Assembly (NCBI GenBank): GCA_013336225.1
Contig: JAAXUC010000004.1
Coordinates: forward strand, 32,421 to 96,420
DNA from: Candidatus Moraniibacteriota bacterium
GTDB taxonomy: Bacteria > Patescibacteriota > Minisyncoccia > Moranbacterales > GWC2-37-73
DNA length: 64,000 bases
Reading direction: 5' to 3'
Below, in pieces: positions 4,179 through 57,970 of this stretch; position 1 is the stretch's first letter; each line of letters starts with the position of its first letter. The notes beneath the pieces are model-generated. The model was not told the origin of the DNA. It made no database searches and saw nothing but the letters and a program-made list of their open reading frames with translations. Position numbers and translations under genes: made by a program.

Positions 4179-4400
4179 GTGGGCAGTGAGGGACTCGAAC
4201 GGGTCGAAGTGAGCTAGAAATTTTCAGTAGAAAATTCGCAGCGAACGCCGATGAATGAGAGCGTGCGAGCATTCAGCGCGACCCTGGGCAAGGAGCGAAG
4301 GCGACGCGTAAATCCCTCACTCTTTGTGCAGTGAGGAACTCGAACCGGCAGAAGCGAGCATTAAGCAAAGGCGAGATGGGTGCAGGAATATGACTTAAAT
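4179..4400. repeat. tRNA-Tyr-linked repeat: two inverted copies of the tRNA-Tyr 3' end (4179-4200 and 4332-4356) flanking a conserved core (cgatgaatgagagcgtgcgagcattcagcgc...ggcaaggagcg)
   Basis: 4179-4200 gtgggcagtgagggactcgaac is the exact reverse complement of the tRNA-Tyr T-arm/acceptor 3' end; the core is near-identical to cores at 57657-57700 and 57846-57890. Confidence 0.7.
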
Positions 4401-9843: not shown

Positions 9844-9910
9844 TTAACGAATTGCGAATTAACGAATTAAAAAATGCATAACAAATCCGTTAATGCGTTA
9901 ATACGTTAAT
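9844..9910. repeat. tandem NCGTTAAT octamers (ttaacgaattgcgaattaacgaattaa ... ccgttaat gcgttaat acgttaat) between the T-box terminator and the glyQS start
   Basis: Direct reading; the same octamer triplet lies upstream of proS at 20831-20855. Confidence 0.65.
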
Positions 9911-9926
9911 AAGTAATTTAAATCAT

Positions 9927-11452: not shown

Positions 11453-12082
11453 TTATGCAGTCATTTTGTTTGTGCGGCGTTTCCCGTACACTGCAATCCC
11501 AAGCAGGCCAACTGAAAACAGTGCCATGGTTCCTGGTTCAGGAACGGGTGCAACCGAAGTCATGTTTATGCCAATTTCGTTTAAACTGAAATCATTCCAG
11601 CAGAGATCTCCAGCCAGGACACTTACTTGAATCAGGCCATCCTTGAGATATTCTTCAAGTCCAGCTTGCTTGAGGTCAATGGTGAATATTTTGCTGGCAG
11701 GACTCATTTGAAACCAGGAAAAATTTCCCAAAAATAGAGTCTTGTCCAGGAGTTTCGTGTCTCCATCCATTGCTCCGGAAGAAATCACAATTCTTTCTGG
11801 CAAAAGATCTGCAGAAGAAATTGTGACTCCCAGGAGCGCAGACGTGATGCTTGAGCCTGGCAAAAATCCAAGAGCATCAGTTGTGGCTCCATTGGTTTGG
11901 TTTACGAAGTCAAAGTTAAAGACCGCGGACTGACCCTGCGATAGTGTTACACTTTGATTGCCATTTAAAAAAGCTTCCTGTTGAGTCATTGGCAGTGCGA
12001 ATGCCATCCCAGCTGTCATCAACATCATCAACATTACAATTAAAAAGTTTTTCATTAAAAATCTCCTTTTCGGTTGAACCAC
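11453..12082 (-). CDS. secreted protein with C-terminal PEP-CTERM sorting signal
   Basis: Signal peptide with basic n-region (KRRFLMKNFLIVMLMMLMTAGMAFA); C-terminus VPEPGTMALFSVGLLGIAVYGKRRTNKMTA = PEP motif + TM helix + basic cluster. Confidence 0.65.
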   Translation of the reverse strand: MVQPKRRFLMKNFLIVMLMMLMTAGMAFALPMTQQEAFLNGNQSVTLSQGQSAVFNFDFVNQTNGATTDALGFLPGSSITSALLGVTISSADLLPERIVISSGAMDGDTKLLDKTLFLGNFSWFQMSPASKIFTIDLKQAGLEEYLKDGLIQVSVLAGDLCWNDFSLNEIGINMTSVAPVPEPGTMALFSVGLLGIAVYGKRRTNKMTA

Positions 12083-12829: not shown

Positions 12830-12967
12830 GGCAAACTCCTTTTCTGAGGGGGGGGATTTGACGCAAGGCGTCTATTGAATTGACAAACAGCTATCTCGAG
12901 ATCACCTGACAATATAATACGATATAAGAACAATGTAAAGGGTTTGAATTCAGGCGGTTTTTTCTTT

Positions 12968-12997
12968 GTTTGACAGGATTGATGGTGCGTGGTAATG
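12968..12997 (+). promoter_or_regulatory. candidate promoter (TTGACA -17- TAATGT) for the small Gly-rich ORF
   Basis: gtttgacaggattgatggtgcgtggtaatgttac. Confidence 0.35.
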
Positions 12998-13059
12998 TTA
13001 CACGTCAAGCACAGTGTGTTTGATTGATGGAAAATCCAGAAAGAAAGGGGGTGAGTTCA

Positions 13060-13173
13060 ATGGGTAAGGGCAGCGGTTCAGGAGGTCATGGAGGCGGCAA
13101 TGCTGGTTCTGGCGGTCAAAGTGGCGGCGGTGGCGGAAGTGCAGGCGGCGGAAGTGGCAGTCGTGGAAAATAG
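13060..13173 (+). CDS. small glycine-rich peptide (37 aa: MGKGSGSGGHGGGNAGSGGQSGGGGGSAGGGSGSRGK)
   Basis: Below the ORF-track cutoff. Strong SD aaagaaagggggtga 7 nt upstream of ATG, and a rho-independent terminator 30 nt downstream. The leader is identical over 15 nt to the leader of the 32839 small ORF. Confidence 0.5.
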   Translation: MGKGSGSGGHGGGNAGSGGQSGGGGGSAGGGSGSRGK

Positions 13174-13202
13174 TAAAAAAGTTGAATGTTCCATGATATG
13201 CA

Positions 13203-13236
13203 AAAAAGAAGCTCTTTTCGAAACCGAAAAGAGCTT
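13203..13236 (+). terminator. rho-independent terminator (aagaagctcttttcg-aaac-cgaaaagagcttc + T)
   Basis: 14-bp stem after the Gly-rich ORF. Confidence 0.6.
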
Positions 13237-13310
13237 CACTTTATTTACGAATGAGTAATAGTAGAAAAGACTTGATATTCTTTTGTATTAAACAGTGGTA
13301 TGATTAAGAT

Positions 13311-14579
13311 ATGAAACATAAGATTGAAAAATTGAAACTTGCCAATGGGGCAATGCTTGTGAATGTGATTGTGAAGAATTTGCCAATTACGATTGTTTCA
13401 GCTTGGTTTAGAGCTGGATCAAGATTTGATCAAAATGGCAAAGAGGGAACAGCACACTTGCTTGAACATCTTTTAATAAAAAGAACAAAAAAATATACAG
13501 ATACCATTGAAAGACTCAAGGACATTGAGTCTAATGGTATTAAATTCAATGCTTTTACAAGTTATGAGACCGCGCATTACTATTACACTCAGCCAAAAGC
13601 AGAGACATGTGGAGCCTTGGATTTTCTGATAGATGGCTTGGAAAATTATGCATTTAATGATGTTGATATTGAAGAAGAAAAAAAAGCCGTGATCAATGAA
13701 TTGATGGAAAACAGAGCAAATCCACGCGAATATATTTGGGAATTGTCCAATGGTTCTTTGTGGAATGGGTTGTCTATGGGAAAACAATTTTTTGGAAACA
13801 AAAAAAGCATAAAATCGATAAACAGAAAAGATTTGCAGGGCTTTATCGATAAATATTATACATCTGAAAATTGTTCATTTTTGGTTGTCGGTGATGGCAA
13901 TACTGAAAAAATCGGGAAATATTTGAATGCGAAACTTATACTTAATGATTCCAAAAAACCAAAACTAATAAAAGAAAAATCCGGCAAACCGAAAAAAATA
14001 TCAATCATTAATAATGATGAATCTCAGGCGATGATTTCAGTTGCTTTTAAAACACTTTCAATGGATGCTGATCCTTTGGAAATTGCTGTGATTGATTTTA
14101 TCCGAGATTATTTGGCAAACAATTGGACGTCAAAACTGATTGAAGAACTTCGCCTCAAGAAGAATGTGACATATTGGGTGGATGGGGCGTCAATTAATTT
14201 TTCAGATACTGGCATGCTCCGATTCACTTTTGCTTGCAATAAGAAAAATGTCACTGAATCCATAAAAATAGTGCTAGATGAGATTGAAAAGTTAAAAATA
14301 AATTCTTTTGATGATGGGGAACTTGCAATGCATAAAAAATCATTTTTGTCTTCAATGATCATGCGATTTGTTGATCCGTATGAATATTTGTGGTGGTATG
14401 GTTGGCAAGTCGTTGTTTCTGATGGAAAAAATGTGGTTAACGTTGAGGAATATTTAAAAATAATTCAGAAAATTAAAGGTGAGGACATTGCTCGCATTGC
14501 TTTGAAATATTTGAATAGAGAAAATATGTCCATTTCCATTATTGGCGATGTTGAAAAAGCTGATGTTATTCTTGCATAA
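13311..14579 (+). CDS. M16-family zinc metallopeptidase (pitrilysin/insulinase-like)
   Basis: Inverted zinc motif HxxEH in GTAHLLEHLLIKRT plus a downstream Glu region; ~420 aa two-domain layout. Confidence 0.8.
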   Translation: MKHKIEKLKLANGAMLVNVIVKNLPITIVSAWFRAGSRFDQNGKEGTAHLLEHLLIKRTKKYTDTIERLKDIESNGIKFNAFTSYETAHYYYTQPKAETCGALDFLIDGLENYAFNDVDIEEEKKAVINELMENRANPREYIWELSNGSLWNGLSMGKQFFGNKKSIKSINRKDLQGFIDKYYTSENCSFLVVGDGNTEKIGKYLNAKLILNDSKKPKLIKEKSGKPKKISIINNDESQAMISVAFKTLSMDADPLEIAVIDFIRDYLANNWTSKLIEELRLKKNVTYWVDGASINFSDTGMLRFTFACNKKNVTESIKIVLDEIEKLKINSFDDGELAMHKKSFLSSMIMRFVDPYEYLWWYGWQVVVSDGKNVVNVEEYLKIIQKIKGEDIARIALKYLNRENMSISIIGDVEKADVILA

Positions 14580-20830: not shown

Positions 20831-20855
20831 GCGTTAATTCGTTAATGCGTTAATG
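20831..20855. repeat. tandem NCGTTAAT octamers (gcgttaat tcgttaat gcgttaat) immediately upstream of proS
   Basis: Same motif family as 9844-9910 upstream of glyQS. Confidence 0.65.
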
Positions 20856-20868
20856 AATAATAAGAACA

Positions 20869-22110
20869 ATGAAACAATCACAACTATTCACCAAAACTAA
20901 AAAAGAAGCTCCATCAGATGAGGTGGCCAAGAACGCGCAACTTTTGATTCGCGCCGGTTTTATTCACAAAGAAATGGCTGGAGTGTATGCATATATGCCG
21001 CTTGGTCTGCGAGTGCTGGAAAACATTAAGCGTATTGTTCGCGAAGAAATGAATGCTGTCGGCGGTCAGGAATTGATGATGACAACCTTGCAACCCAAAG
21101 AAATTTGGGAGAAGACTGGTCGTTGGGATGATGCCAAGGTGGATAATTGGTTCAAGACTAAATTGGTTAATGGCACAGAACTTGGAGTGGGACTGACTCA
21201 TGAAGAACCAATTGTTGATGCTGTTAGCAACTATCTCAATTCATACAAGGGCATGCCATTTTCAGTGTATCAAATTCAGAATAAATTTAGAAATGAAAAA
21301 CGGGCCAAGAGCGGAATTTTGCGTGGACGCGAATTTTTGATGAAAGATATGTACACATTTTGCAAAGATCAAGAGCAGCATGAGCAGGAATATGAAAAGA
21401 TTGTGGCTGCATATCATCGTGTTTATGCGCGCCTAGGGTTGGGGGAAATCACATATCGCACCTATGCTGATGGAGGAATTTTCACGCCTCGTTTTAGCGA
21501 TGAATTCCAAACACTCACTGAGGTGGGAGAAGATACGATTTATGTTGATGAGAAAAAACGAATTGCAATCAATGAGGAAATTTTGACGGATGAGAACTTG
21601 AAAAAACTCGGCCTTGATCGCAATGATCTTGTGGCGAAAAAAGGCGTTGAAGTCGGAAACACTTTTCATTTGGAAAGCAAATATACTGACGCATTGGATT
21701 TGTTCTATATTGATGAAAAAGGTGAAAAGCAATCAATTTTGATGGGATGCTATGGAATTGGAGTTAGTCGCTTGATGGGAGTTGTTGCGGAACTTTTTTC
21801 TGATGACAAGGGCTTGGTGTGGCCGGAAAATGTTGCGCCGTTTGCTGTGCATCTTTTGAGTCTTGGACAAGATGAAGAAACTGAAAAAATTTGCATCGAA
21901 CTTGAAAAAAACGGAATTGAAGTTTTGTTTGATGATCGCGACGCACAGGCTGGTGCAAAATTTGCCGACTCAGATTTGATTGGAATTCCATGTCGAGTGG
22001 TTGTTAGTAAAAAATCTTTGGCTGCTGGGGGACTTGAAGTGAAAATGCGAAATGAAAGTGAAAGCAAGATTATGACAGTGGAGGAATTGTTGCAAATGCT
22101 AAAAAAGTAA
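20869..22110 (+). CDS. proS: prolyl-tRNA synthetase, short form lacking the INS editing domain
   Basis: N-terminus MKQSQLFTKTKKEAPSDEVAKNAQLLIRAGFIHK...GVYAYMPLG parallels bacterial ProRS; class II motifs and anticodon-binding C-terminus present. At 413 aa there is no room for the ~180-aa insertion domain. Confidence 0.85.
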   Translation: MKQSQLFTKTKKEAPSDEVAKNAQLLIRAGFIHKEMAGVYAYMPLGLRVLENIKRIVREEMNAVGGQELMMTTLQPKEIWEKTGRWDDAKVDNWFKTKLVNGTELGVGLTHEEPIVDAVSNYLNSYKGMPFSVYQIQNKFRNEKRAKSGILRGREFLMKDMYTFCKDQEQHEQEYEKIVAAYHRVYARLGLGEITYRTYADGGIFTPRFSDEFQTLTEVGEDTIYVDEKKRIAINEEILTDENLKKLGLDRNDLVAKKGVEVGNTFHLESKYTDALDLFYIDEKGEKQSILMGCYGIGVSRLMGVVAELFSDDKGLVWPENVAPFAVHLLSLGQDEETEKICIELEKNGIEVLFDDRDAQAGAKFADSDLIGIPCRVVVSKKSLAAGGLEVKMRNESESKIMTVEELLQMLKK

Positions 22111-25678: not shown

Positions 25679-26707
25679 ATGCTTATTGAATCAAAAATTA
25701 TTGGTATAAATATTAAAAAGCAAAGGCTTTTGAATAAGATGTCACAAGTTGATGTTGGAAATCTTTTAAGTACTACAAAATCTTATATATGTAGCTTGGA
25801 GCGTGGTAATAGGAACCCTTCTTTGAAAACTTTAAAAAAAATAGCACTTATCTTCAATGTACCCGTAGAAATTCTTTTGAGGGGTAATGATATAGCTGAT
25901 TCAAAATATCAAAAGATAAGGGATGATAAATTTCAGCAATTTGAGAAGAAGATAAAAAATTGGAATATTACTTCACAGAAAAAATGGTGCAATTTTTTCA
26001 TCGATGAAGAAAGTATGTTTTTCAATAAAAATAGAATTAATCAGATAAAGACTATAGTGAAAAGATATGCTGATAATAAAAACTTATCAGTTATAGATTC
26101 GTCATGTGGAACTGGAAGACTTACGGAATTACTTGCAAAAGATGGCTTTAAAAAAATATATGGAATTGATGCCAATCCATATGTTGTAGAGATAGCAAGA
26201 GAGCAAGCAATACAAAAAGCATTAATGATAAACTATGATATATCTATTCCGCCAAGTTTTGAAAAAAAAGTATTTGATGTGGTTTTTAACATAGGAACAT
26301 CGATAGGGTATTTGCAAAGTGAGGAGGATAATTTTGAGAATATCAGAAGAATAAGTTGTTTAGTCAGTAGGGGTGGAAAAATAATAATTGAGGCAGTTAA
26401 TCCTATTGGGATATTGCGTAATTTTAGTTCAAGCGAAACACTTAAATTGGATGGAAAGAAGCGATCATATCAACGTTTTTTTGATGTAAGGAGTTCAACA
26501 AGTATTGAAAATGTTATTGATACTTATGATAATAAAAAACAAATTGAATATTTTAGCAGTATTCGATTATTTTTTCCCCACGAATTAATATCTATTTTTT
26601 TGAATAGTGGGTTTATTTTAGTTGATCTGCTTGATAATAATTTAACCAGGAAAAATACCGTTAATTCACCTAGGCTATGGTATATTTTTCAGAAAAAAAA
26701 TGTTTAA
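25679..26707 (+). CDS. HTH-XRE (Cro/C1-type) DNA-binding domain fused to a class I SAM-dependent methyltransferase domain
   Basis: N-terminus QVDVGNLLSTTKSYICSLERGNRNPSLKTLKKIALIFNVPVEILL = XRE HTH; C-terminal motif I VIDSSCGTGRLT, post-I GIDANP, motif II FDVVFN. Confidence 0.7.
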   Translation: MLIESKIIGINIKKQRLLNKMSQVDVGNLLSTTKSYICSLERGNRNPSLKTLKKIALIFNVPVEILLRGNDIADSKYQKIRDDKFQQFEKKIKNWNITSQKKWCNFFIDEESMFFNKNRINQIKTIVKRYADNKNLSVIDSSCGTGRLTELLAKDGFKKIYGIDANPYVVEIAREQAIQKALMINYDISIPPSFEKKVFDVVFNIGTSIGYLQSEEDNFENIRRISCLVSRGGKIIIEAVNPIGILRNFSSSETLKLDGKKRSYQRFFDVRSSTSIENVIDTYDNKKQIEYFSSIRLFFPHELISIFLNSGFILVDLLDNNLTRKNTVNSPRLWYIFQKKNV

Positions 26708-27797
26708 TTTTATTGGTAAAATGCAATTTCATCAGAATAAAATAAATTCTCTCCTTGAGGATAGAATTGAAAATTCACTAACTACTGTCTTTATTGATCT
26801 GGTTAGCGGTGTTTGTAATCATAAGTGTGTGTTTTGTGATGGAAATTTTAATCCAATAAAAAAGCTAATTTTTTCCAAGAGTAAGTTGCTTGAAATAGCT
26901 AATGATCTTGGTGATATGAATGTTGATTCCGTGATTATGGTTGGCGAGGGTGGAGAATCATTATTGAATCCCAATTTTTGTTTTTTTTCAAAGAAATTGT
27001 TGGATAAAAAAATTCATCTTGGAATGTATACGAACGGTGGCATGTTGAATAAGAAAAATCTCGGTGTTATTTCAAGGTTTGATTTTATTAGAATTTCTTT
27101 GGACTCTGGATCATCGATAACTCATCAGCAAGTGCATGGGTATGAGGATAGAGATGATTTTAATAAGATATTTGAATCAATTGAATATTTAAGAAAAAGA
27201 AGCAAAATACAAATAGGATCATCATTCTTGCTATTACCACAGAACGTAGATGATTTATATGAGGCTGCAAAGAGATTAAAGGAGGCTGGTGCGAATTATA
27301 TAGAGGTTAGGCCAGCATATTTAAGGGATTACGGCTTTGATTTAAAGGCTTTTAAATCGATAAAGGATCGTTTCTTATACCAATTGGATAAAATGGACGT
27401 CCTAAATGATGATAGCTTTAAGGTGATTATTAATAATCAGTTAAAGGAGATAATTAAAAATAAAAAAACAATTCGTGGTGATGTTACAAGGTTGAAAAGA
27501 TCAAGAAATTGTTTAACTTGTAGGTTGAGATTAGTTGTGAGTCCAACGGGATGTTATATTTGTCCACCAAATAGAAGTAAAGAAGATTTTCGCATAGGTG
27601 ATATTTGGAATAATCCTTTACGTAGCATTTGGAATAATAGGGAACATTTGGATAAGATTAATAAAAAATGTGATTTAAAATGTCCTTACCATAAGCAAAA
27701 TAATTTTTTAATTAAATTAAAGAAAAATAATTTAATTTTTGATGATAAGTGCTTGCTGCCAGCTGGCAAATTAATTACTCAGAAAAATTTTCTATAA
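26700..27797 (+). CDS. radical SAM enzyme with C-terminal SPASM/twitch-like Cys-rich domain
   Basis: CX3CX2C (VSGVCNHKCVFCDG); C-terminal CLTCRLRL...GCYICPP...GDIWNNPLRSIWNN...CDLKCPYH resembles SPASM auxiliary-cluster motifs; overlaps the upstream gene by 8 nt. Confidence 0.8.
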   Translation: MFNFIGKMQFHQNKINSLLEDRIENSLTTVFIDLVSGVCNHKCVFCDGNFNPIKKLIFSKSKLLEIANDLGDMNVDSVIMVGEGGESLLNPNFCFFSKKLLDKKIHLGMYTNGGMLNKKNLGVISRFDFIRISLDSGSSITHQQVHGYEDRDDFNKIFESIEYLRKRSKIQIGSSFLLLPQNVDDLYEAAKRLKEAGANYIEVRPAYLRDYGFDLKAFKSIKDRFLYQLDKMDVLNDDSFKVIINNQLKEIIKNKKTIRGDVTRLKRSRNCLTCRLRLVVSPTGCYICPPNRSKEDFRIGDIWNNPLRSIWNNREHLDKINKKCDLKCPYHKQNNFLIKLKKNNLIFDDKCLLPAGKLITQKNFL

Positions 27798-27801
27798 AAA
27801 T

Positions 27802-28899
27802 ATGATAAAACCTATAAACTTTACAAAATATTATAAAGAAATTTTATCAGAATTGATGCTAGCATTTAGCGAGTTTATTTTAAGTGGGCAATATATCGGA
27901 GGTAAATTGGTGGAAAAATTTGAAGATAAAGTTAAAAAATATTTGGGTGCTAAACATGCAATAGGATGTAAGAGCGGAACACATGCTCTTCAGCTTGCGC
28001 TTTTAGCTGCTGGTGTTGAGAAAGGTGATGAAGTTATTACGGTTGCTAATACATATTACGCAACGGTATATGCAATTACTGCTGTAGGAGCAACGCCAAT
28101 TTTTTGTGATATTTTACCAGAAAATGGGCAAATTGATCATAATAAAATTGAAGCTAAAATTACTAAAAAAACAAAGGTTATTTTGCCAGTTCATTTGTAT
28201 GGGATACCTGTTAATTTGGGGGAAATTAGAAAAATTTGCAAAAAATATAAGTTAATATTAATTGAGGATTGTTCTCATGCATTTGGAACAAGGTTAAATG
28301 GTGAATATATAGGAAGTGATTCAGATTTTGGATGCTTTAGTATGTATCCAACAAAAAATCTCGGTGCTTTTGGTGATGCTGGATTTATAACAACAAAAAA
28401 TAAGAAATATGAAAGCAAGATTCGCGAATTGATTTATTTGACAGATGCTAAGCGGGTAAAATTTAATCCAAAAGCTATTCATGCTATGCTGGATCCTCTT
28501 CAGGCAGCCTTGCTTTTGGTAATGCTAGATAAGATGGATCAAGCACGCAAAGATAGAATTGAGAGAGCGGATGAATATAGGAAAAATCTAGAGGAATATA
28601 TCAGGATAAGTAAGGTTGGAAGTGATAGTGTTGTGAATCCTCACATGTTCCCAATTTTTATTAAAAATAGGAACAAGTTGATAAAATTTTTGGCAGATTC
28701 CTCTGTGCATGTGCAAGTTCATTATCCAACCAATCTGCATTGTCTGTCACAGTTTGGATCATACGCCAAAGGGTATCTCCCAGAAACGGAGAGGCACAAT
28801 AGAGAAGAGGTCAGTCTTTCTGTTCATCCATCTGTTTCAATATCTGAAGTTAAGAAAATATGTAAATTAATTAAGCAGTATGTCGAAATTAACAAATAG
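27802..28899 (+). CDS. DegT/DnrJ/EryC1/StrS-family PLP-dependent (sugar) aminotransferase
   Basis: Family N-terminus GGKLVEKFEDKVKKYLGAKHAIGCKSGTHALQLAL; PLP-Lys motif FSMYPTKNLGAFGDAGFI. Confidence 0.8.
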   Translation: MIKPINFTKYYKEILSELMLAFSEFILSGQYIGGKLVEKFEDKVKKYLGAKHAIGCKSGTHALQLALLAAGVEKGDEVITVANTYYATVYAITAVGATPIFCDILPENGQIDHNKIEAKITKKTKVILPVHLYGIPVNLGEIRKICKKYKLILIEDCSHAFGTRLNGEYIGSDSDFGCFSMYPTKNLGAFGDAGFITTKNKKYESKIRELIYLTDAKRVKFNPKAIHAMLDPLQAALLLVMLDKMDQARKDRIERADEYRKNLEEYIRISKVGSDSVVNPHMFPIFIKNRNKLIKFLADSSVHVQVHYPTNLHCLSQFGSYAKGYLPETERHNREEVSLSVHPSVSISEVKKICKLIKQYVEINK

Positions 28900-29884
28900 A
28901 AAGAAAATTGTTGTTTTGGTTCTTGGATTTAGGGCGCTTTCTTTTATTAAGAAGGGTTATTTAGCGTCAATTATTAAGGCTGCCGATAAAATAAAAAATG
29001 CAAAAGTTGATATTGTTTATCTTGATAATTATTCAAGAGATGGATCAGTACCATACATCATGAAAAATTATAAAAATATCGATCTATTATCTGCGACTGA
29101 AAATTATTTTTACTGTAAGGGTGTAAATGTCGGTTTGCAATTTTCATATCAAAAATATAGACCAGATTACTTTATGCTTGTAGATGCTGATAATCCATGT
29201 GAAGAGAGCGCTTATGGTAAGTTGATTGATTTTGCAAATAAAAATGCAAAAGTGGGAATTGTTCAGCCGCTAGTTAAGGGTCTAAGTGATTCAAATAGAG
29301 TATATTCATGTGGGCACGTATATGAAAATGGTATTTCATGTAGGCCATTAAGAGAAATCCCAAAAAACAAAAAAATATTATTAAATCTTCAAAGTTGTTC
29401 AATATCATCAACACTTGTCAAAACAAAGGTTTTTGAAAAATGTGGTTTGCTTGATCCTATTTTCAAGATTTATTATGAAAGTAGCGACTTATCATTCAGA
29501 GCAAGAAAAGCGGGCTTCTTGTGTGCTTGCCATGTTGAGGCTGTGTGTTTTAATGAGGGTGCAAAAGTTTCAAAAACTGATAATTTTCATGAGGGTTATT
29601 TTAGAAATAGAAACAATTTAATTTTCTGGAAAAAACATGATAATGAAAAATATGAAATTTTAAAAAAGATATATCAAGAAAGGCATAAGCAATTAAATGT
29701 AAAATTGGCTAATTTGAAATATGTCACAGACATGGAAGAGGAGAGTGAGCGAAGGGGGATTGAGGACGGCATAAAAATTACTAAAAAAATGGTTGCAGGT
29801 ATCAAGAATGAAGAGAGGATAGATAAATTTGATAAAACTGATGCTATTGTGATTCAGGAAGCATGCAAAAATAATGAAAAATAA
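28880..29884 (+). CDS. family 2 glycosyltransferase
   Basis: GT2 motifs DIVYLDNYSRDGS, DxD (LVDADN), and YESSDLSFRARKAGF (ED-DLS-R-R-AG). Confidence 0.65.
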   Translation: MSKLTNRKKIVVLVLGFRALSFIKKGYLASIIKAADKIKNAKVDIVYLDNYSRDGSVPYIMKNYKNIDLLSATENYFYCKGVNVGLQFSYQKYRPDYFMLVDADNPCEESAYGKLIDFANKNAKVGIVQPLVKGLSDSNRVYSCGHVYENGISCRPLREIPKNKKILLNLQSCSISSTLVKTKVFEKCGLLDPIFKIYYESSDLSFRARKAGFLCACHVEAVCFNEGAKVSKTDNFHEGYFRNRNNLIFWKKHDNEKYEILKKIYQERHKQLNVKLANLKYVTDMEEESERRGIEDGIKITKKMVAGIKNEERIDKFDKTDAIVIQEACKNNEK

Positions 29885-32150
29885 CATGTCAAAATCATTT
29901 CATCTTTTCTTATTGAAATTTTTCTATTCCATGTTATGCATTAAGGATTATTTCATGATGGGTTTTGAAATCAAAAAGCTTAAGAAGATAGCCAGCAAAT
30001 CAGTAGACACATTGCAATTTAATGATAAATTGAATGAAAATATCGTTGTTGGTGTGGACGAAAAAGAAGGATATTATATTGATTCAAAAAAGCCATCTTA
30101 TTACAAGAAGCACTTTAATGATTTTTTTCATAATGATTTGTATGGTAAATATAGATCAGATGAAAATATTATTTTAAGTACTGGTGCTCTTAATCAGGAT
30201 GAATTTTGTCTTCCGCGTTCGTTGAAATTTGCCATAAGCTATGCTCTTACGAGAAATTGGTATGGTTATTCTTGCAGCTTAGGTAGGGAATCAGCTCGCT
30301 TGGCTATAGCTGATCTGGAAAACCATAAAATTAATAGCAATATCTACAATGAAAATAATGTAGCATTGATACAGGGTGTTACGGCCGGATTATTTCACTT
30401 ATTATCATTTTTGAAAGAGAGAGAGGAAGATGGTAACTTCGGCATTTTGACGCATTATCCAACTTACGTGCCTTTTGCAGCAACTTGCGAAAAAATCGCA
30501 CCCACAAAAATAATAAATTTTTTTGGTGATAAAAAATTTAGCATCGAAGCGTTTAAGCGAAATATAGATAAAACAACAAAGGTGATTTTATTGCTTGGAG
30601 ATTTTAATCCATTAGGAAAACTTATGGATGTTTCTTTTGTTAATGAATTGATTGATATTTGTGATGAGAAGTCGATATATCTTATTATTGATGAGGCTGG
30701 TTCAAAATATCCGGAAAATAATTGGAATAATTTGAAAAATAGTGATTTCTTAATCAGGATGGATAGCTTATCTAAAAAAGTTTCAGTTCCTGGTATGAAA
30801 TTGGGATATTTTATTGCAAATGAGGAGATAATCTCTGAATTTTATGAGCGAGCATCAACAACCTATGGTGGCCCATCATCTTTTTTTTACATCCTACAAG
30901 AACTTGATGCAAGGTTCGATCTTTTTTTCCGCAAGGGTTTGCTTAAGATTGGATCAGGAGAGTTGGCATTATTTGATAAAAATTACAATCTAGGATTATT
31001 TTTTTTGAATATTCTCTATGGTCAATATATTAAAAATAAACATTTTTTTGAGTTAAAAATAAAACAGCATCGCAGTATCGTTATTGATAAGCTTATCAGT
31101 CATCATCCTCAATTGGTGAAAAAAATAATCATGCCAGAAACTGGTATTAATATTTTTTTGCAATTAGATGTCGATTACGGCAGTTATGAATTTTTCAGAA
31201 AATTGATAGTTGAAAAAAGGACAGCAGTTTTTCCGGGACTTTGTTCTGCTACAGATAAAGAATGCTGGATAAGAATAACATGTGGTGTTGATAAAAAAAC
31301 TTTGCAAACTGGTTTGGATAATTTGGTTGATTTTCTTAAGACTGAGTGGATCAAGAAACAAATACAAAAAGAGCCATTTTTTGAAAAATTACTTCTTGAT
31401 TTTGGTCAGTATGGGAGTTATGGTTACTTGTCATTTTTTGAACACATTTATGATGTTCAAAAAAATGGAATGAAAATATTGGATATTTTTGAGCTGAAAA
31501 CTAGAAGAAAGTTGGATCGTGATTTACTTAGGGAGGTGATATTTTGTCATGATGCTGGGAAAGTTGTGAGTGTGATAGTGTTTCGAATTATGAGAATTTT
31601 GCAACTTCAAAAAAAATATGGAAAAATCCCATTTTCAGTTTTTTCTAAATTGAGAGACGAGGATTTACTGTTTTTGCGAAAGGAAATAGTGGATTGTTTT
31701 GTTTTTACAAAAGAATATTTTTACGAAATGTTTCCATTTTTGCATGATTATTCTGAATTAATGAATTTAGATAGTGATAAATATCTTAAAGATACCGTCT
31801 TTACTGAGAAGATGCTTCAGCTTGCTCTGGATAAATATCCAAATTATGAGAAAAAAATAGAAGAAATGAAATTTATAATATTGAACAATTCCGCAAAAAT
31901 TAATATCAATAATTTAATGATTGGATATAATCCGTATATTTTCATTTTGGATTTTGCAGATAAAATTGCTGATTATAATCTTCCAGAAGAACCAACTCTG
32001 GCAAAAATAGATGAACTTTTGAGAAAAAAGAAAAAATATGTAATTAAACGATATTGTCATAATAATCGATCCATGGAAGCTATTGTCCATTGCGAGTTTA
32101 GTCATCTGTATGAGCTAATTAGGGAATCAAGAGTTTTTCATAAATGTTAA
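29874..32150 (+). CDS. fusion protein: class I/II PLP aminotransferase domain + C-terminal putative HD-type phosphohydrolase domain
   Basis: Aminotransferase PLP-Lys motif SLSKKVSVPGMKLGYFIAN (cf. SFSKxxxxxGxRxGY); C-terminal H...HDAGK (FEHIYD...VIFCHDAGKV) resembles HD-domain motifs I and II. Confidence 0.55.
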   Translation: MKNNMSKSFHLFLLKFFYSMLCIKDYFMMGFEIKKLKKIASKSVDTLQFNDKLNENIVVGVDEKEGYYIDSKKPSYYKKHFNDFFHNDLYGKYRSDENIILSTGALNQDEFCLPRSLKFAISYALTRNWYGYSCSLGRESARLAIADLENHKINSNIYNENNVALIQGVTAGLFHLLSFLKEREEDGNFGILTHYPTYVPFAATCEKIAPTKIINFFGDKKFSIEAFKRNIDKTTKVILLLGDFNPLGKLMDVSFVNELIDICDEKSIYLIIDEAGSKYPENNWNNLKNSDFLIRMDSLSKKVSVPGMKLGYFIANEEIISEFYERASTTYGGPSSFFYILQELDARFDLFFRKGLLKIGSGELALFDKNYNLGLFFLNILYGQYIKNKHFFELKIKQHRSIVIDKLISHHPQLVKKIIMPETGINIFLQLDVDYGSYEFFRKLIVEKRTAVFPGLCSATDKECWIRITCGVDKKTLQTGLDNLVDFLKTEWIKKQIQKEPFFEKLLLDFGQYGSYGYLSFFEHIYDVQKNGMKILDIFELKTRRKLDRDLLREVIFCHDAGKVVSVIVFRIMRILQLQKKYGKIPFSVFSKLRDEDLLFLRKEIVDCFVFTKEYFYEMFPFLHDYSELMNLDSDKYLKDTVFTEKMLQLALDKYPNYEKKIEEMKFIILNNSAKININNLMIGYNPYIFILDFADKIADYNLPEEPTLAKIDELLRKKKKYVIKRYCHNNRSMEAIVHCEFSHLYELIRESRVFHKC

Positions 32151-32748: not shown

Positions 32749-32838
32749 TTATTTTTAATGGCATATGAGGTTGTGGATATTCTGAAAAGGTAATATATAT
32801 TGAAAGCAGAATAAATCAAAAAGAAAGGGGGTGATGAT

Positions 32839-32985
32839 ATGCTAGATGGAAATCCTTGGGTTGGGGCAGCTATGAGTGGACACTACAATTACAAAGAAGC
32901 AGCGCCTATGTTTATATTTGCTGTAGTTATTGTTTGTGTGTTGCTTGTTATTGGTGTGGTAGTTTTTTTAAAAGAAAGAAAATAA
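32839..32985 (+). CDS. small membrane peptide (48 aa: MLDGNPWVGAAMSGHYNYKEAAPMFIFAVVIVCVLLVIGVVVFLKERK)
   Basis: Below the ORF-track cutoff. SD aaagaaagggggtga identical to the 13060 ORF leader. Single TM helix followed by KERK; hairpins follow (32990-33015 and 33079-33122). Confidence 0.5.
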   Translation: MLDGNPWVGAAMSGHYNYKEAAPMFIFAVVIVCVLLVIGVVVFLKERK

Positions 32986-50201: not shown

Positions 50202-50320
50202 GTAGCTTATTAGGCGTTAGCTTCTTAGCTTGTTAGTCTAATAATGGGGATGATACAGATTATAAACATTTTATAAAAAGCTTAGAAGCTAAAAAGCTAA
50301 AAAGCTAAAACCTGATTAAT
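50202..50320. repeat. duplicated intergenic spacer (agcttattaggcgttagcttcttagctt ... aaaaagctaa x3) between rpsM and rpsK
   Basis: Near-identical spacer at 50797-50881 between rpsK and rpsD; an AAAAGCTAA tandem also occurs at 55065-55095. Confidence 0.6.
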
Positions 50321-50788
50321 ATGGTAGACGAAATTAAAAAAATTGAAGAACTTTTAGCTGCAGAATCTGGTGAAATTTCTGCAGAAACTGCTAGCGCAAC
50401 TGAAGCTGAAACAAAGAAGAAGAAAAAGAAGATCAAGCGACAAATCAGCAAAGGACAGGCACACATCAAATGCACCTACAACAATACAATGGTGATGATT
50501 TCTGATGCTAATGGCGCCATGCTTGGATGGTCAAGCTCTGGACTGCTTGGTTTCAAGGGAGCAAAGAAGGCAACTCCATATGCTGCAACTCAAGTTGTGC
50601 ATGATGTGACTGAGAAAGTGAAGAAATTTGGAATGCATGAGTTGGATGTTTTCGTGAGAGGAGTTGGCTCCGGACGAGAATCATCAATTCGCTCATTGGC
50701 CAACAAAGGTTTTGAACTTACTGCAATCAAAGATGTAACACCAATTCCTCATAATGGATGCAGAGCAAAGAAACCGAGACGAGTATAA
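50321..50788 (+). CDS. rpsK: 30S ribosomal protein S11 with ~25-aa acidic then K-rich N-terminal extension
   Basis: Core GQAHIKCTYNNTMVMISDANG...GFKGAKKATPYAA matches S11. Confidence 0.9.
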   Translation: MVDEIKKIEELLAAESGEISAETASATEAETKKKKKKIKRQISKGQAHIKCTYNNTMVMISDANGAMLGWSSSGLLGFKGAKKATPYAATQVVHDVTEKVKKFGMHELDVFVRGVGSGRESSIRSLANKGFELTAIKDVTPIPHNGCRAKKPRRV

Positions 50789-50796
50789 TATATAAC

Positions 50797-50881
50797 AGCT
50801 TATTAGGCGTTAGCTTCTCAGCTTCTCAGGAAAACAATTTCCTAAAAAGCTAAAAAGCTAAATAGCTAAAACCTGATTTTT
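50797..50881. repeat. second copy of the ribosomal-operon intergenic spacer (agcttattaggcgttagcttctcagctt ... aaaaagctaaaaagctaaatagctaaaacctgat)
   Basis: Paralogous to 50202-50320. Confidence 0.6.
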
Positions 50882-55051: not shown

Positions 55052-55097
55052 CACTTTTGTATTTTTCTAAGAAGCTAAAAAGCTAAAGCCTGGTAAG

Positions 55098-57586: not shown

Positions 57587-57970
57587 AGGCACAGAGGGAT
57601 TCGAACGGGCAGAAGCTAAGCAAATTGTTTTTCAGCAGAAAAGCAATGCGGCGTGCGTCGATGAATGCGAGGAATACGAGCATTCAGCGCTGCCCAGGAC
57701 AAGGAGCAAGTGAGCGACGGCGAACGAGCGACGCGTGACAGACTGTGCCCACAAAGAGAAAAATCCCTATTGGGGATTTTTTTGTCTTTGTGCACAGAGG
57801 GATTCGAACCGGCAGGAGTGAGATATGAGCGAAGGCGAATAATCGAACGCCGATGAATGAGAGCGTGCGAGCATTCAGCGCTGCCGCGGGCAACGAGCTG
57901 TCAGCAGACAGTGAGGCGGAAATCCTTTGTCTAAATTGTACACACAGAGGGATTCGAACGGGCAGGAGTT
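57587..57970. repeat. tRNA-Lys-linked repeat array: three inverted copies of the tRNA-Lys 3' end (57589-57612, 57790-57815, 57939-57966) interleaved with the conserved core (cgatgaatg[a/c]gag..cgagcattcagcgctgcc)
   Basis: cacagagggattcgaac is the reverse complement of GGTTCGAATCCCTCTGTG; cores at 57657-57700 and 57846-57890 are near-identical to the core at 4247-4290 in the tRNA-Tyr locus. Confidence 0.7.

What the first reader, a model, noticed from the sequence alone, without database searches (positions are those of the whole stretch)
13031..13240. Small Gly-rich ORF (37 aa) with strong SD and own terminator, sharing an identical leader with a second small ORF at 32839
atgggtaagggcagc... 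encodes MGKGSGSGGHGGGNAGSGGQSGGGGGSAGGGSGSRGK. It is preceded by aaagaaagggggtga (SD plus spacer) and followed 30 nt later by a 14-bp terminator hairpin, so it looks like an independent small gene. The 15-nt leader agaaagggggtga, together with the preceding aa, is identical to the leader of the unrelated 48-aa hydrophobic peptide ORF at 32839. That is more than an SD alone would explain and implies a duplicated leader or regulatory cassette driving two different small peptides. The product is cysteine-free and essentially all Gly/Ser/Ala. It is reminiscent of Gly-rich RiPP or microcin precursors, or of intrinsically disordered secreted peptides.
Basis: seen in the sequence. Interest (0 to 1): 0.6.

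Follow-up and report, generated by a model that had tools for sequence, protein, structure and literature searches.

The report
Conserved unannotated glycine-rich microprotein gene
The 37-codon glycine-rich ORF is a real, strongly conserved and almost never annotated small-protein gene found in at least two bacterial phyla, with unknown function, and the "shared leader" is just an unusually long ribosome-binding site.

Summary
A 37-aa ORF (13060-13173, +) has a TTGACA-17-TAATGT promoter, the 15-mer AAAGAAAGGGGGTGA five bases before its ATG, and a 13-bp terminator hairpin (13208-13237). The same 15-mer precedes a 48-aa ORF at 32839.

The ORF is a real gene. Homologues with a near-invariant core, SGGHGxGNxGSGGQSGGxGGSxGGGxGxRG[KR]-stop, occur in at least 14 distinct lineages. 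These include Patescibacteria and one Phycisphaerae-like locus. Codon differences are mostly synonymous (14 versus 2 against the synteny-found orthologue). Each of the nine distinct loci whose DNA I read has its own terminator, and all but one have an SD. Gene callers miss it or give it false N-terminal extensions.

The shared "leader" is best read as an extended Shine-Dalgarno sequence. It complements a Bacillus-type 16S 3' tail (assumed, not checked) with one G-U. The two small ORFs have the strongest SDs among 56 genes in a window where most genes have none. The closest orthologue keeps only the SD core, so a duplicated cassette is not supported.

The RiPP or microcin reading is not supported. 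There is no leader, no Cys, and no maturase or exporter. The radical-SAM gene belongs to a sugar-modification cluster 13.5 kb away.

An active-site-bearing M16 peptidase is the only conserved neighbour, in 4 of 10 lineages with readable flanks. Function is unknown; no Pfam, NCBIfam, PDB or Rfam match, and AF2 gives no fold.

The parts
12970..12998 (+). Sigma-70-like promoter: -35 TTGACA (12970-12975), 17-nt spacer, extended -10 TGgTAATGT (12990-12998)
   Evidence: Read from the sequence. The scan tool did not list it because TAATGT matches only 3 of 6 positions of TATAAT. Orthologues have TTGACA-17-TAATAT (L002) and TTGACA-17-TATAAT (L006) at the same relative place.
13041..13054 (+). Extended Shine-Dalgarno site AAGAAAGGGGGTGA, 5 nt before the ATG
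   Evidence: Predicted duplex of -16.6 kcal/mol with GAUCACCUCCUUA, second strongest of 56 gene starts. Unpaired in the centroid fold. The core AAGGGGGTG is kept in orthologue L002.
13060..13173 (+). Coding sequence of the 37-aa glycine-rich microprotein (stop included)
   Evidence: Homologues appear. There are 10-21 synonymous against 0-6 non-synonymous codon differences over 29 codons. Differences fall 536 times on third positions against 86 and 70 on first and second. The stop falls directly after RG[KRS] in every member.
13208..13247 (+). Intrinsic terminator: 13-bp stem, 4-nt loop, tail ACTTTATTTA
   Evidence: A GC-rich hairpin followed by a T-run lies after the stop in each of the nine distinct loci whose DNA I read.
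13311..14579 (+). M16 zinc peptidase (HLLEH active-site motif), a conserved downstream neighbour that is probably transcribed separately
   Evidence: Pfam PF00675 and PF05193. It lies directly downstream of the peptide gene in the window, L002, L013 and L005/L015, with M16 identities of 25-59%. It is the only protein shared between these neighbourhoods. TGgTATGAT ends 6 nt before its ATG, which suggests its own promoter (inference).
32820..32834 (+). Second copy of the 15-mer, the extended SD of the 48-aa ORF
   Evidence: Predicted duplex of -18.1 kcal/mol, the strongest in the window.
32839..32985 (+). 48-aa ORF with one hydrophobic segment, unrelated to the Gly-rich peptide
   Evidence: The only database match is itself, annotated as hypothetical protein HGA36_02355 of Candidatus Moranbacteria. 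Its status as a gene rests only on the SD and the ORF.

Best explanation
Shown: window 12970-13247 is a monocistronic unit made of a promoter, a roughly 55-nt leader, an extended SD, 37 codons and an intrinsic terminator. It encodes a member of an undescribed microprotein family. The family has a short variable N-terminus (2-17 residues) and a near-invariant 31-residue C-terminal core, SGGHGxGNxGSGGQSGGxGGSxGGGxGxRG[KR]. The family is under strong purifying selection. It occurs in Patescibacteria and in at least one Phycisphaerae-like (Planctomycetota) locus.

Inferred: the 15-mer shared with ORF 32839 is not a cassette. Both small ORFs carry a near-full complement of the 16S rRNA 3' tail, AGAAAGGgGGUGA pairing with UCACCUCCUUUCU through one G-U. 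In this genome most genes start without an SD, so the two sites point to SD-driven, probably efficient, initiation.

Inferred on mode of action: the product has no hydrophobic residue and no signal peptide, carries a net positive charge, and has no predicted fold. It therefore most likely stays in the cytoplasm. It probably acts as an extended (disordered or polyglycine-II-like) chain bound by a conserved partner, because only tight contacts along the whole chain would explain near-invariance of a peptide that is 60% Gly.

In Patescibacteria the best candidate partner is the adjacent M16 peptidase. M16 enzymes enclose and cut unstructured peptides below about 70 residues (established knowledge of pitrilysin, IDE and PreP). 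On that reading the peptide would be a dedicated substrate or occupant of that enzyme. I put the M16-substrate step at about 0.3 and the real-gene and SD parts at about 0.9.
For: - **Coding and conserved.** Orthologue L002 was found through synteny alone. Its M16 neighbour is 59% identical, and its peptide differs from the window's by 14 synonymous and 2 non-synonymous codons.
- **Independent protein hits.** P0001 and P0002 came from a word-index search. An exhaustive profile search of 1.84 billion representatives gave 8 hits. All carry the motif at the extreme C-terminus behind unrelated N-terminal extensions.
- **Metagenome hits.** Eight metagenome loci have ATG starts directly before the core, all preceded by an SD or purine-rich RBS, and all have terminators.
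- **Phylum range.** L002 and L005 are titled Moraniibacteriota and Patescibacteria. In L021 the neighbouring ComEC best matches Phycisphaerales, Tepidisphaeraceae and Fontivita at 50-70% identity.
- **SD reading.** Duplex energies, the 23-nt limit of similarity and the SD in L002.
- **M16 link.** The peptide-then-M16 order holds in 4 lineages, and no other neighbour is shared between them.
- **No fold.** AF2 pLDDT of 54-55.
Against: - Function is untested, and I have no expression data.
- The 16S 3' tail of this organism is not in the window or in any fetched locus. The complementarity therefore assumes a canonical Bacillus-type tail.
- The M16 link is missing in 6 of 10 lineages: L006, L009, L011, L016, L018 and L021. 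L003, whose M16 is 58% identical, has no peptide upstream.
- The peptide and the M16 gene are separated by a strong terminator, and M16 seems to have its own promoter.
- The metagenome hits were retrieved with a pattern that forces 14 core residues to be conserved. Invariance at those positions in L009-L016 is partly built in. The residues outside the pattern and the independently found members are unaffected.
Confidence: 0.6

Rival explanations
1. The peptide is one of a set of abundant small hydrophilic stress or dormancy proteins. It would act without processing, as a protectant or as a binder of ribosomes or nucleic acids through its basic Gly/Arg-rich chain.
For: In the GC~50% loci L010 and L020 the peptide gene is the first in an array of monocistronic small hydrophilic genes. 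Each gene is preceded by the same box, CCGGCTCGACAGTAG, and followed by its own terminator. Three of the co-arrayed 65-68-aa proteins give faint matches to ribosome modulation factor at the same profile positions, with E-values of 0.001-0.08, below threshold. The peptide is hydrophilic, basic, shows no predicted fold and carries strong expression signals.
Against: Protectant-type disordered proteins usually drift fast, but this core is near-invariant across phyla. The array is seen only in two related lineages, not in the window. The RMF matches are all below threshold.
Confidence: 0.2
2. The peptide is the precursor of a ribosomally made product, either a RiPP or microcin-like compound or a peptide-derived cofactor as with PqqA, and the M16 peptidase matures it.
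For: The layout resembles a highly expressed precursor gene followed by a terminator and then a processing gene. M16 peptidases do serve in PQQ biosynthesis (PqqF, my own knowledge) and in class III lanthipeptide leader removal (PMC10885120). The composition loosely recalls the Gly/Ser-rich core of microcin B17 (my own knowledge). Peptide and M16 are paired in 4 lineages.
Against: RiPP precursors have a conserved leader and a variable core. Here the N-terminus is short and variable and the C-terminus is invariant. There is no Cys, Glu, Tyr or Trp to modify. No YcaO, radical-SAM, lanthionine synthetase, ATP-grasp maturase or exporter lies next to the peptide in any locus. The window's radical-SAM gene lies in a sugar-modification cluster 13.5 kb away. 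NCBIfam precursor models do not match. Small-genome Patescibacteria are not known as RiPP producers (my own knowledge).
Confidence: 0.1
3. The ORF is a cis-acting, glycine-codon-rich leader peptide. It would sense Gly-tRNA supply and control read-through of the terminator into the M16 gene.
For: 23 of the 37 codons are Gly, a terminator follows 34 nt after the stop, a gene follows on the same strand, and glyS lies 1.8 kb upstream.
Against: The non-Gly residues H, N, S, Q and R are invariant, which an attenuator does not need. In 6 of 10 lineages the peptide gene has no fixed downstream gene. No alternative antiterminator pairing stands out in the fold. M16 has its own -10 element next to its ATG.
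Confidence: 0.03
4. The two small ORFs share a duplicated regulatory leader cassette, a common cis-element beyond the SD, that co-regulates them.
For: An exact 15-mer, extendable to 23 nt with one gap and one mismatch, lies before both ATGs. Both share the unusual G in GGGGG where a canonical SD has GGAGG.
Against: There are only two copies. Similarity stops at 23 nt, and the pair ranks 9th of 1540 upstream pairs. 13 of the 15 bases are accounted for by complementarity to a 16S tail. Orthologue L002 keeps 12 of 15 bases, essentially the SD core. Other orthologues have unrelated leaders. The promoters and the rest of the two leaders differ.
Confidence: 0.05
5. The ORF is a chance open frame in a GGN-rich non-coding stretch or a small RNA.
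For: Gene callers did not call it. It is of low complexity. The transcript folds somewhat better than shuffled versions, z = -2.9.
Against: The substitution pattern has codon periodicity and synonymous sites are saturated. The start, stop and SD are conserved across GC contents from 31% to 54%. There is no Rfam match.
Confidence: 0.02

Closest known systems
PqqA, the PQQ precursor peptide, with PqqF, an M16 peptidase
   Same: Both are very small, highly conserved peptide genes that annotation often misses. Both have their own strong expression signals and a hairpin before the downstream genes. An M16 peptidase is encoded nearby.
   Different: There is no Glu or Tyr pair to cross-link and no radical-SAM PqqE, PqqB, PqqC or PqqD next to it. 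The peptide is 60% Gly. The pairing with M16 holds in only 4 of 10 lineages.
Microcin B17 precursor McbA and other linear azole peptides
   Same: Both have a Gly/Ser-rich stretch with scattered Asn, Gln and His.
   Different: There is no 26-aa leader, no Cys, no McbBCD/YcaO synthetase and no exporter or immunity genes. It is the core here that is invariant, not a leader.
KGG-repeat general stress proteins (YciG, YmdF, GsiB; Pfam PF10685), the bacterial hydrophilins
   Same: Both are small, Gly-rich, very hydrophilic cytoplasmic proteins without a stable fold. In some lineages the new family is clustered with other small hydrophilic genes.
   Different: There is no sequence relationship (Pfam none, hhalign probability 0.8%). 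The family has no acidic residues and no repeat of the KGG unit. It is far more conserved.
Polyglycine-II helix proteins (snow flea antifreeze protein, N-terminal domain of Obg)
   Same: Gly falls at every third position over runs of 3-5 triplets (G-N-A, G-S-G, G-Q-S, G-G-K, G-G-S), with small polar residues between.
   Different: At 31 residues it is too short for a six-helix bundle on its own. AF2 predicts no such fold. The resemblance is of pattern only and was not tested further.
Pup and UBact, the prokaryotic ubiquitin-like tags
   Same: Both are small disordered proteins with Gly runs and a GGQ. UBact is reported in Planctomycetes and some candidate phyla (my own knowledge).
   Different: Pup and UBact need a C-terminal Gln or Glu (GGQ/GGE or R[TS]G[EQ]). 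Here GGQ is internal and the chain ends in RG[KRS]. No PafA or Dop ligase lies nearby.
Extended Shine-Dalgarno sites of Firmicutes
   Same: AGAAAGGgGGTGA complements the full Bacillus-type 16S tail UCACCUCCUUUCU, with spacing of 4-5 nt to the ATG.
   Different: It occurs in a genome where about 49 of 56 genes have no SD. It carries a central G-U wobble at both sites.

Membership tests
RiPP precursor (LAP / microcin B17 type) | N-terminal leader of about 20 or more residues, conserved and recognised by the maturase, with a more variable core | tested here: not met
   Alignments A1 and A3: only 2-17 variable residues precede an invariant C-terminal core.
RiPP precursor (LAP / microcin B17 type) | Cys/Ser/Thr core with adjacent YcaO-type cyclodehydratase, dehydrogenase and exporter | tested here: not met
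   No Cys in the peptide. Pfam scans and gene tables of neighbours in the window, L005, L006, L009, L011, L016, L018 and L021 show none of these.
PqqA-like cofactor precursor | Conserved Glu-X3-Tyr and an adjacent radical-SAM/SPASM enzyme | tested here: not met
   No Glu or Tyr in the core. The only radical-SAM gene (26700-27797) lies 13.5 kb away among sugar-modifying genes.
PqqA-like cofactor precursor | M16 peptidase encoded with the precursor | tested here: inconclusive
   Adjacent in 4 of 10 lineages and the only shared neighbour there. Absent in 6. L003 has the M16 without the peptide.
Class II microcin / double-glycine-leader bacteriocin | GG-type leader plus a C39-peptidase ABC exporter, and a hydrophobic or amphipathic mature peptide | tested here: not met
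   No leader, no hydrophobic residue and no ABC exporter nearby.
KGG-repeat stress proteins (PF10685) | Match to the KGG repeat profile | tested here: not met
   No Pfam family at E up to 10 for 8 members.
Pup / UBact | C-terminal Gln or Glu after GG or R[TS]G | tested here: not met
   All 14 members end in RGK, RGR or RGS.
Attenuation leader peptide | Fixed downstream regulated operon and alternative terminator/antiterminator pairing | tested here: not met
   The downstream gene differs or lies on the other strand in 6 of 10 lineages. No competing structure stands out.
Shine-Dalgarno site (for the 15-mer) | Complementarity to the 16S rRNA 3' tail, 4-9 nt before the start codon | tested here: met
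   Energies of -16.6 and -18.1 kcal/mol with GAUCACCUCCUUA and spacing of 5 and 4 nt. Caveat: the organism's own 16S tail could not be read.
Known RNA families (Rfam) | Match at gathering score | tested here: not met
   Only tRNAs match in the window. Nothing above noise in 12830-13320.
Polyglycine-II bundle proteins | Packed left-handed PGII helices | not testable with these tools
   The AF2 monomer gives pLDDT 54-55 and no structure. Oligomers or complexes could not be modelled.

The most novel reading that the evidence does not exclude
The peptide is an ancient microprotein shared by Patescibacteria and Planctomycetota. Its whole 31-residue Gly-rich core is read by a conserved partner. In CPR bacteria that partner would be the M16 "peptidasome", either as a dedicated ribosomal substrate that yields a defined Gly-rich product or as an occupant that regulates the enzyme. 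Alternatively it is a new ribosome- or RNA-binding factor built around its invariant GGQ and RG motifs. Either reading would define a new functional class of bacterial microprotein that current annotation cannot see.
Probability: 0.15. Interest if true: 0.8.

Novelty: new variant of a known kind. Interest (0 to 1): 0.5.

Why it matters
CPR/Patescibacteria genomes are small, and much of their biology is unexplained. A highly expressed gene that is nearly invariant across lineages whose neighbouring enzymes share only 25-59% identity is likely to do something important.

It is absent from annotation. It was not called in the source assembly, and only 8 miscalled versions appear among 1.84 billion protein-cluster representatives. 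This shows that low-complexity microproteins are systematically missed.

The recurrent pairing with an M16 peptidase gives a directly testable idea for the role of these widespread but poorly understood stand-alone M16 enzymes.

The finding also documents strong, extended SD sites reserved for a few genes in an otherwise SD-poor genome.

Tried and rejected
- **Rfam.** The whole window at gathering score and the locus at E up to 10 gave only tRNAs and noise. L010 also gave nothing.
- **Protein family libraries.** Pfam and NCBIfam on the peptide family found nothing, even at E = 10.
- **Solved structures.** A PDB sequence search found nothing.
- **Structure prediction.** AF2 with 3-row and 9-row alignments gave no confident structure, so no fold search was run.
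- **Exact look-up.** The 37-aa product is not on record.
- **Viral contigs.** Two degenerate patterns gave no hits, so there is no sign of a phage origin.
- **Literature.** Full-text searches for the motif strings and for Gly-rich small proteins in Patescibacteria found nothing relevant. The only motif hit was zebrafish FUS.
- **KGG stress-protein relationship.** Rejected.
- **16S rRNA 3' end.** I looked for it in the fetched loci to check the anti-SD and found none.
- **Link to the radical-SAM "operon".** Rejected, because that gene belongs to a sugar-modification cluster.
- **Neighbours in non-M16 loci.** No recurrent partner (YgjP-like peptidase, DUF4143 ATPase, unknowns).
- **Cluster look-up for taxon names.** It added only "Patescibacteria group bacterium".

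Full report
**1. What is in the sequence**

- The ORF starts at ATG 13060 and ends at TAG 13171-13173. It encodes MGKGSGSGGHGGGNAGSGGQSGGGGGSAGGGSGSRGK.
- Upstream lie TTGACA (12970-12975), a 17-nt spacer and TGgTAATGT (12990-12998).
- AAAGAAAGGGGGTGA occupies 13040-13054, five bases before the ATG.
- A 13-bp hairpin (13208-13237) with a T-rich tail follows 34 nt after the stop. It is the dominant element of the predicted transcript fold, in which the SD stays unpaired.
- The identical 15-mer lies at 32820-32834, four bases before the ATG of a 48-aa ORF with one hydrophobic segment.
The stem is 13 bp rather than 14, the gap is 34 nt rather than 30, and coordinate 13031 lies in the leader.

**2. 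Is the shared 15-mer more than chance, and what is it?**

An exact 15-nt repeat is common here, because the window contains 56 direct repeat pairs of 15 nt or more. What is unusual is where the two copies sit.

- Most genes in this window have no Shine-Dalgarno sequence. For 56 gene starts the predicted duplex with GAUCACCUCCUUA has a median near -2 kcal/mol, and only about seven starts are below -8.
- The two small ORFs are the two strongest, at -18.1 and -16.6.
- AGAAAGGGGGTGA differs at a single position, a G-U wobble, from AGAAAGGAGGTGA. That sequence is the full complement of a Bacillus-type 16S 3' tail (established knowledge of that rRNA).
- I could not read this organism's own 16S, so this step is inference.
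- Local alignment of the two 100-nt upstream regions covers only 23 nt and ranks 9th of 1540 gene pairs.
- The closest orthologue of the Gly-rich gene keeps GGAAGGGGGTG, which is 12 of the 15 bases. More distant orthologues use GGAGG-type sites, and one has no SD.

The shared "leader" is best explained as two copies of a maximal ribosome-binding site, not as a duplicated regulatory cassette.

**3. The ORF is a real, conserved gene**

- *Source.* The source is a Candidatus Moranbacteria (Patescibacteria/CPR) MAG. The gene was not called in the only assembly where I could see gene calls. No database protein matches the ORF with either start.
- *Synteny-found orthologue.* Searching for relatives of the downstream M16 peptidase gave L002, a Moraniibacteriota MAG whose M16 is 59% identical. 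In the same position it carries MGGKGGHGGGNAGSGGQSGGGGGSTGGGSGTRGK with promoter, SD and terminator. This orthologue was found without reference to the peptide. It differs by 14 synonymous and 2 non-synonymous codons over the 29 aligned core codons.
- *Protein searches.* These added P0001 (Patescibacteria group bacterium) and P0002. An exhaustive profile search of 1.84 billion cluster representatives gave just 8 hits. All have the motif at the extreme C-terminus behind unrelated, evidently miscalled, N-terminal extensions.
- *Metagenome scan.* A degenerate-codon scan of metagenome contigs gave 8 more loci, representing 4 further lineages.
- *Substitution pattern.* Across all pairs, differences fall 536 times on third codon positions against 86 and 70 on first and second.
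- *Family consensus.* It reads SGGHGxGNxGSGGQSGGxGGSxGGGxGxRG[KR]-stop, preceded by 2-17 variable residues.
- *Caveat.* The metagenome pattern forces 14 residues to match, so conservation at those positions in L009-L016 is partly built in. The C-terminal third and the independently found members are not affected.
- *Phylum range.* In L021 the adjacent ComEC best matches Phycisphaerales, Tepidisphaeraceae and Fontivita at 50-70% identity. The family therefore reaches beyond CPR into Planctomycetota.
- *No recent transfer.* Synonymous sites are saturated, so this is not recent horizontal transfer.
- *Phage origin.* No copies occur in viral contigs.

**4. Context**

- In the window, L002, L013 and L005/L015 the gene lies directly upstream of an M16 zinc peptidase with an intact HxxEH motif.
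- The M16 proteins are only 25-59% identical. An all-against-all comparison of neighbours shows M16 to be the only protein shared between these neighbourhoods. The pair is thus kept while the surroundings are not.
- Against a tight link, a strong terminator separates the two genes, and M16 seems to have its own -10 element six bases before its ATG.
- Six other lineages have no M16 within about 5 kb. L003 has the M16 without the peptide.
- In two related GC~50% lineages (L010, L020) the peptide gene heads an array of monocistronic small hydrophilic genes. Each carries the same upstream box, CCGGCTCGACAGTAG. Some give faint, sub-threshold matches to ribosome modulation factor.

**5. What it is not**

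- *RiPP or microcin precursor.* There is no conserved leader, no Cys, and no maturase or exporter near it in any locus. No NCBIfam precursor model matches.
- *Partner of the radical-SAM "operon".* That gene (26700-27797) sits with an HTH-methyltransferase, a DegT aminotransferase, a GT2 glycosyltransferase and another aminotransferase. This is a sugar-modification cluster 13.5 kb away.
- *Attenuator leader peptide.* The non-Gly residues are invariant, and the downstream gene is not fixed.
- *KGG-type stress protein.* No relationship was detected.
- *Pup or UBact.* The family ends in RG[KRS], not in Gln or Glu.
- *Known RNA.* No Rfam match.

**6. How it most likely works**

Shown: the locus is a monocistronic small gene with strong expression signals, and its product is under strong purifying selection.

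Inferred: the product is cytoplasmic, because it has no hydrophobic residue and no signal peptide. It is basic and has no autonomous fold (AF2 pLDDT 54-55). Near-invariance of such a chain argues for contacts along its whole length with a conserved partner, in an extended or polyglycine-II-like form.

| Reading | Probability |
|---|---|
| Dedicated substrate or occupant of the adjacent M16 peptidase (CPR) | about 0.3 |
| Stress or dormancy small protein that binds ribosomes or nucleic acids | about 0.2 |
| Modified natural-product or cofactor precursor | about 0.1 |

The invariant internal GGQ and the C-terminal RG[KR] are unexplained.

**7. Novelty and verdict**

The gene architecture is ordinary. 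The family appears undescribed: it has no Pfam, NCBIfam or PDB match, and a full-text search for the motif found nothing relevant. It is almost invisible to annotation.

The independent-gene reading is supported. The duplicated-cassette and RiPP readings are not supported. Interest is moderate at 0.5: this is a solid new conserved microprotein family with a testable M16 link, but no function has been established.

Noticed in passing
L010 1480-3200; L020 50-1247 (also L009, L012, L014, L018, L019): There are arrays of monocistronic small hydrophilic genes. Each is preceded by the box CCGGCTCGACAGTAG and a second box, GGTGGCAAAG.CGAGAA.TCCG, about 35 nt before the ATG, and each has its own terminator. 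Members are the Gly-rich peptide, 65-68-aa proteins with a DY..GYQ.G.QQRLADEI motif (faint RMF-like Pfam matches) and 39-40-aa Asp/Gly-rich peptides ending GDGSTGEGV. This may be a small-protein regulon.
   Followed up: partly
window, all gene starts (e.g. 13311, 56852, 18390): About 49 of 56 genes lack any SD. Many have a TATAAT-like hexamer 6-12 nt before the ATG, for example TGgTATGAT 6 nt before the M16 start and TATAAT 6 nt before 56852. This suggests widespread leaderless or very short-leader mRNAs. Besides the two small ORFs, only 15476 (TTG start, GGGAGGTG) has a strong SD.
   Followed up: partly
window 9895-9926 and 20838-20868: The upstream regions of glyS (9927) and of the class II aminoacyl-tRNA synthetase at 20869 share a repeated CGTTAAT motif (GTTAATACGTTAATAAG against CGTTAATGCGTTAATGAAT). 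This pair had the third highest upstream-pair similarity in the window and may be a common regulatory site.
   Followed up: no
window 50204-50310, 50797-50870, 55070-55090: AAGCTAAAAAGCTAAAA-type repeats and a 22-nt repeat (AGCTTATTAGGCGTTAGCTTCT) lie upstream of the genes at 50321 and 50882 and near 55070.
   Followed up: no
window 4242-4279 and 57844-57881; 57589-57960: A 38-nt exact repeat and several 17-23-nt repeats (CACAGAGGGATTCGAAC...) lie next to tRNA genes. They look like tRNA 3'-half fragments or duplicated tRNA-flanking sequence.
   Followed up: no
window 11453-12082 (-): A 209-aa protein carries a C-terminal PEP-CTERM sorting motif (Pfam E = 8.5e-07). This is unexpected in a Patescibacteria genome, because PEP-CTERM/exosortase systems are typical of diderm bacteria.
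   Followed up: no
window 25679-32150: This region has lower GC (30-32%). It encodes an HTH-methyltransferase, a radical-SAM enzyme, a DegT aminotransferase, a GT2 glycosyltransferase and a 758-aa aminotransferase-domain protein. It is probably a horizontally acquired sugar or glycan modification cluster.
   Followed up: partly
L003 3890-3985: At the position where relatives carry the Gly-rich gene, the M16 orthologue of L003 is preceded by an unrelated short ORF (MEKEKAQVTLNIEISLK...) that overlaps a terminator hairpin. The peptide gene has been lost or replaced there.
   Followed up: no
L021 124-1584: The ComEC next to the Planctomycete-type peptide gene is 486 aa and lacks the C-terminal metallo-beta-lactamase domain found in most homologues, which are about 840 aa. 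Several similarly short versions exist in the database.
   Followed up: no
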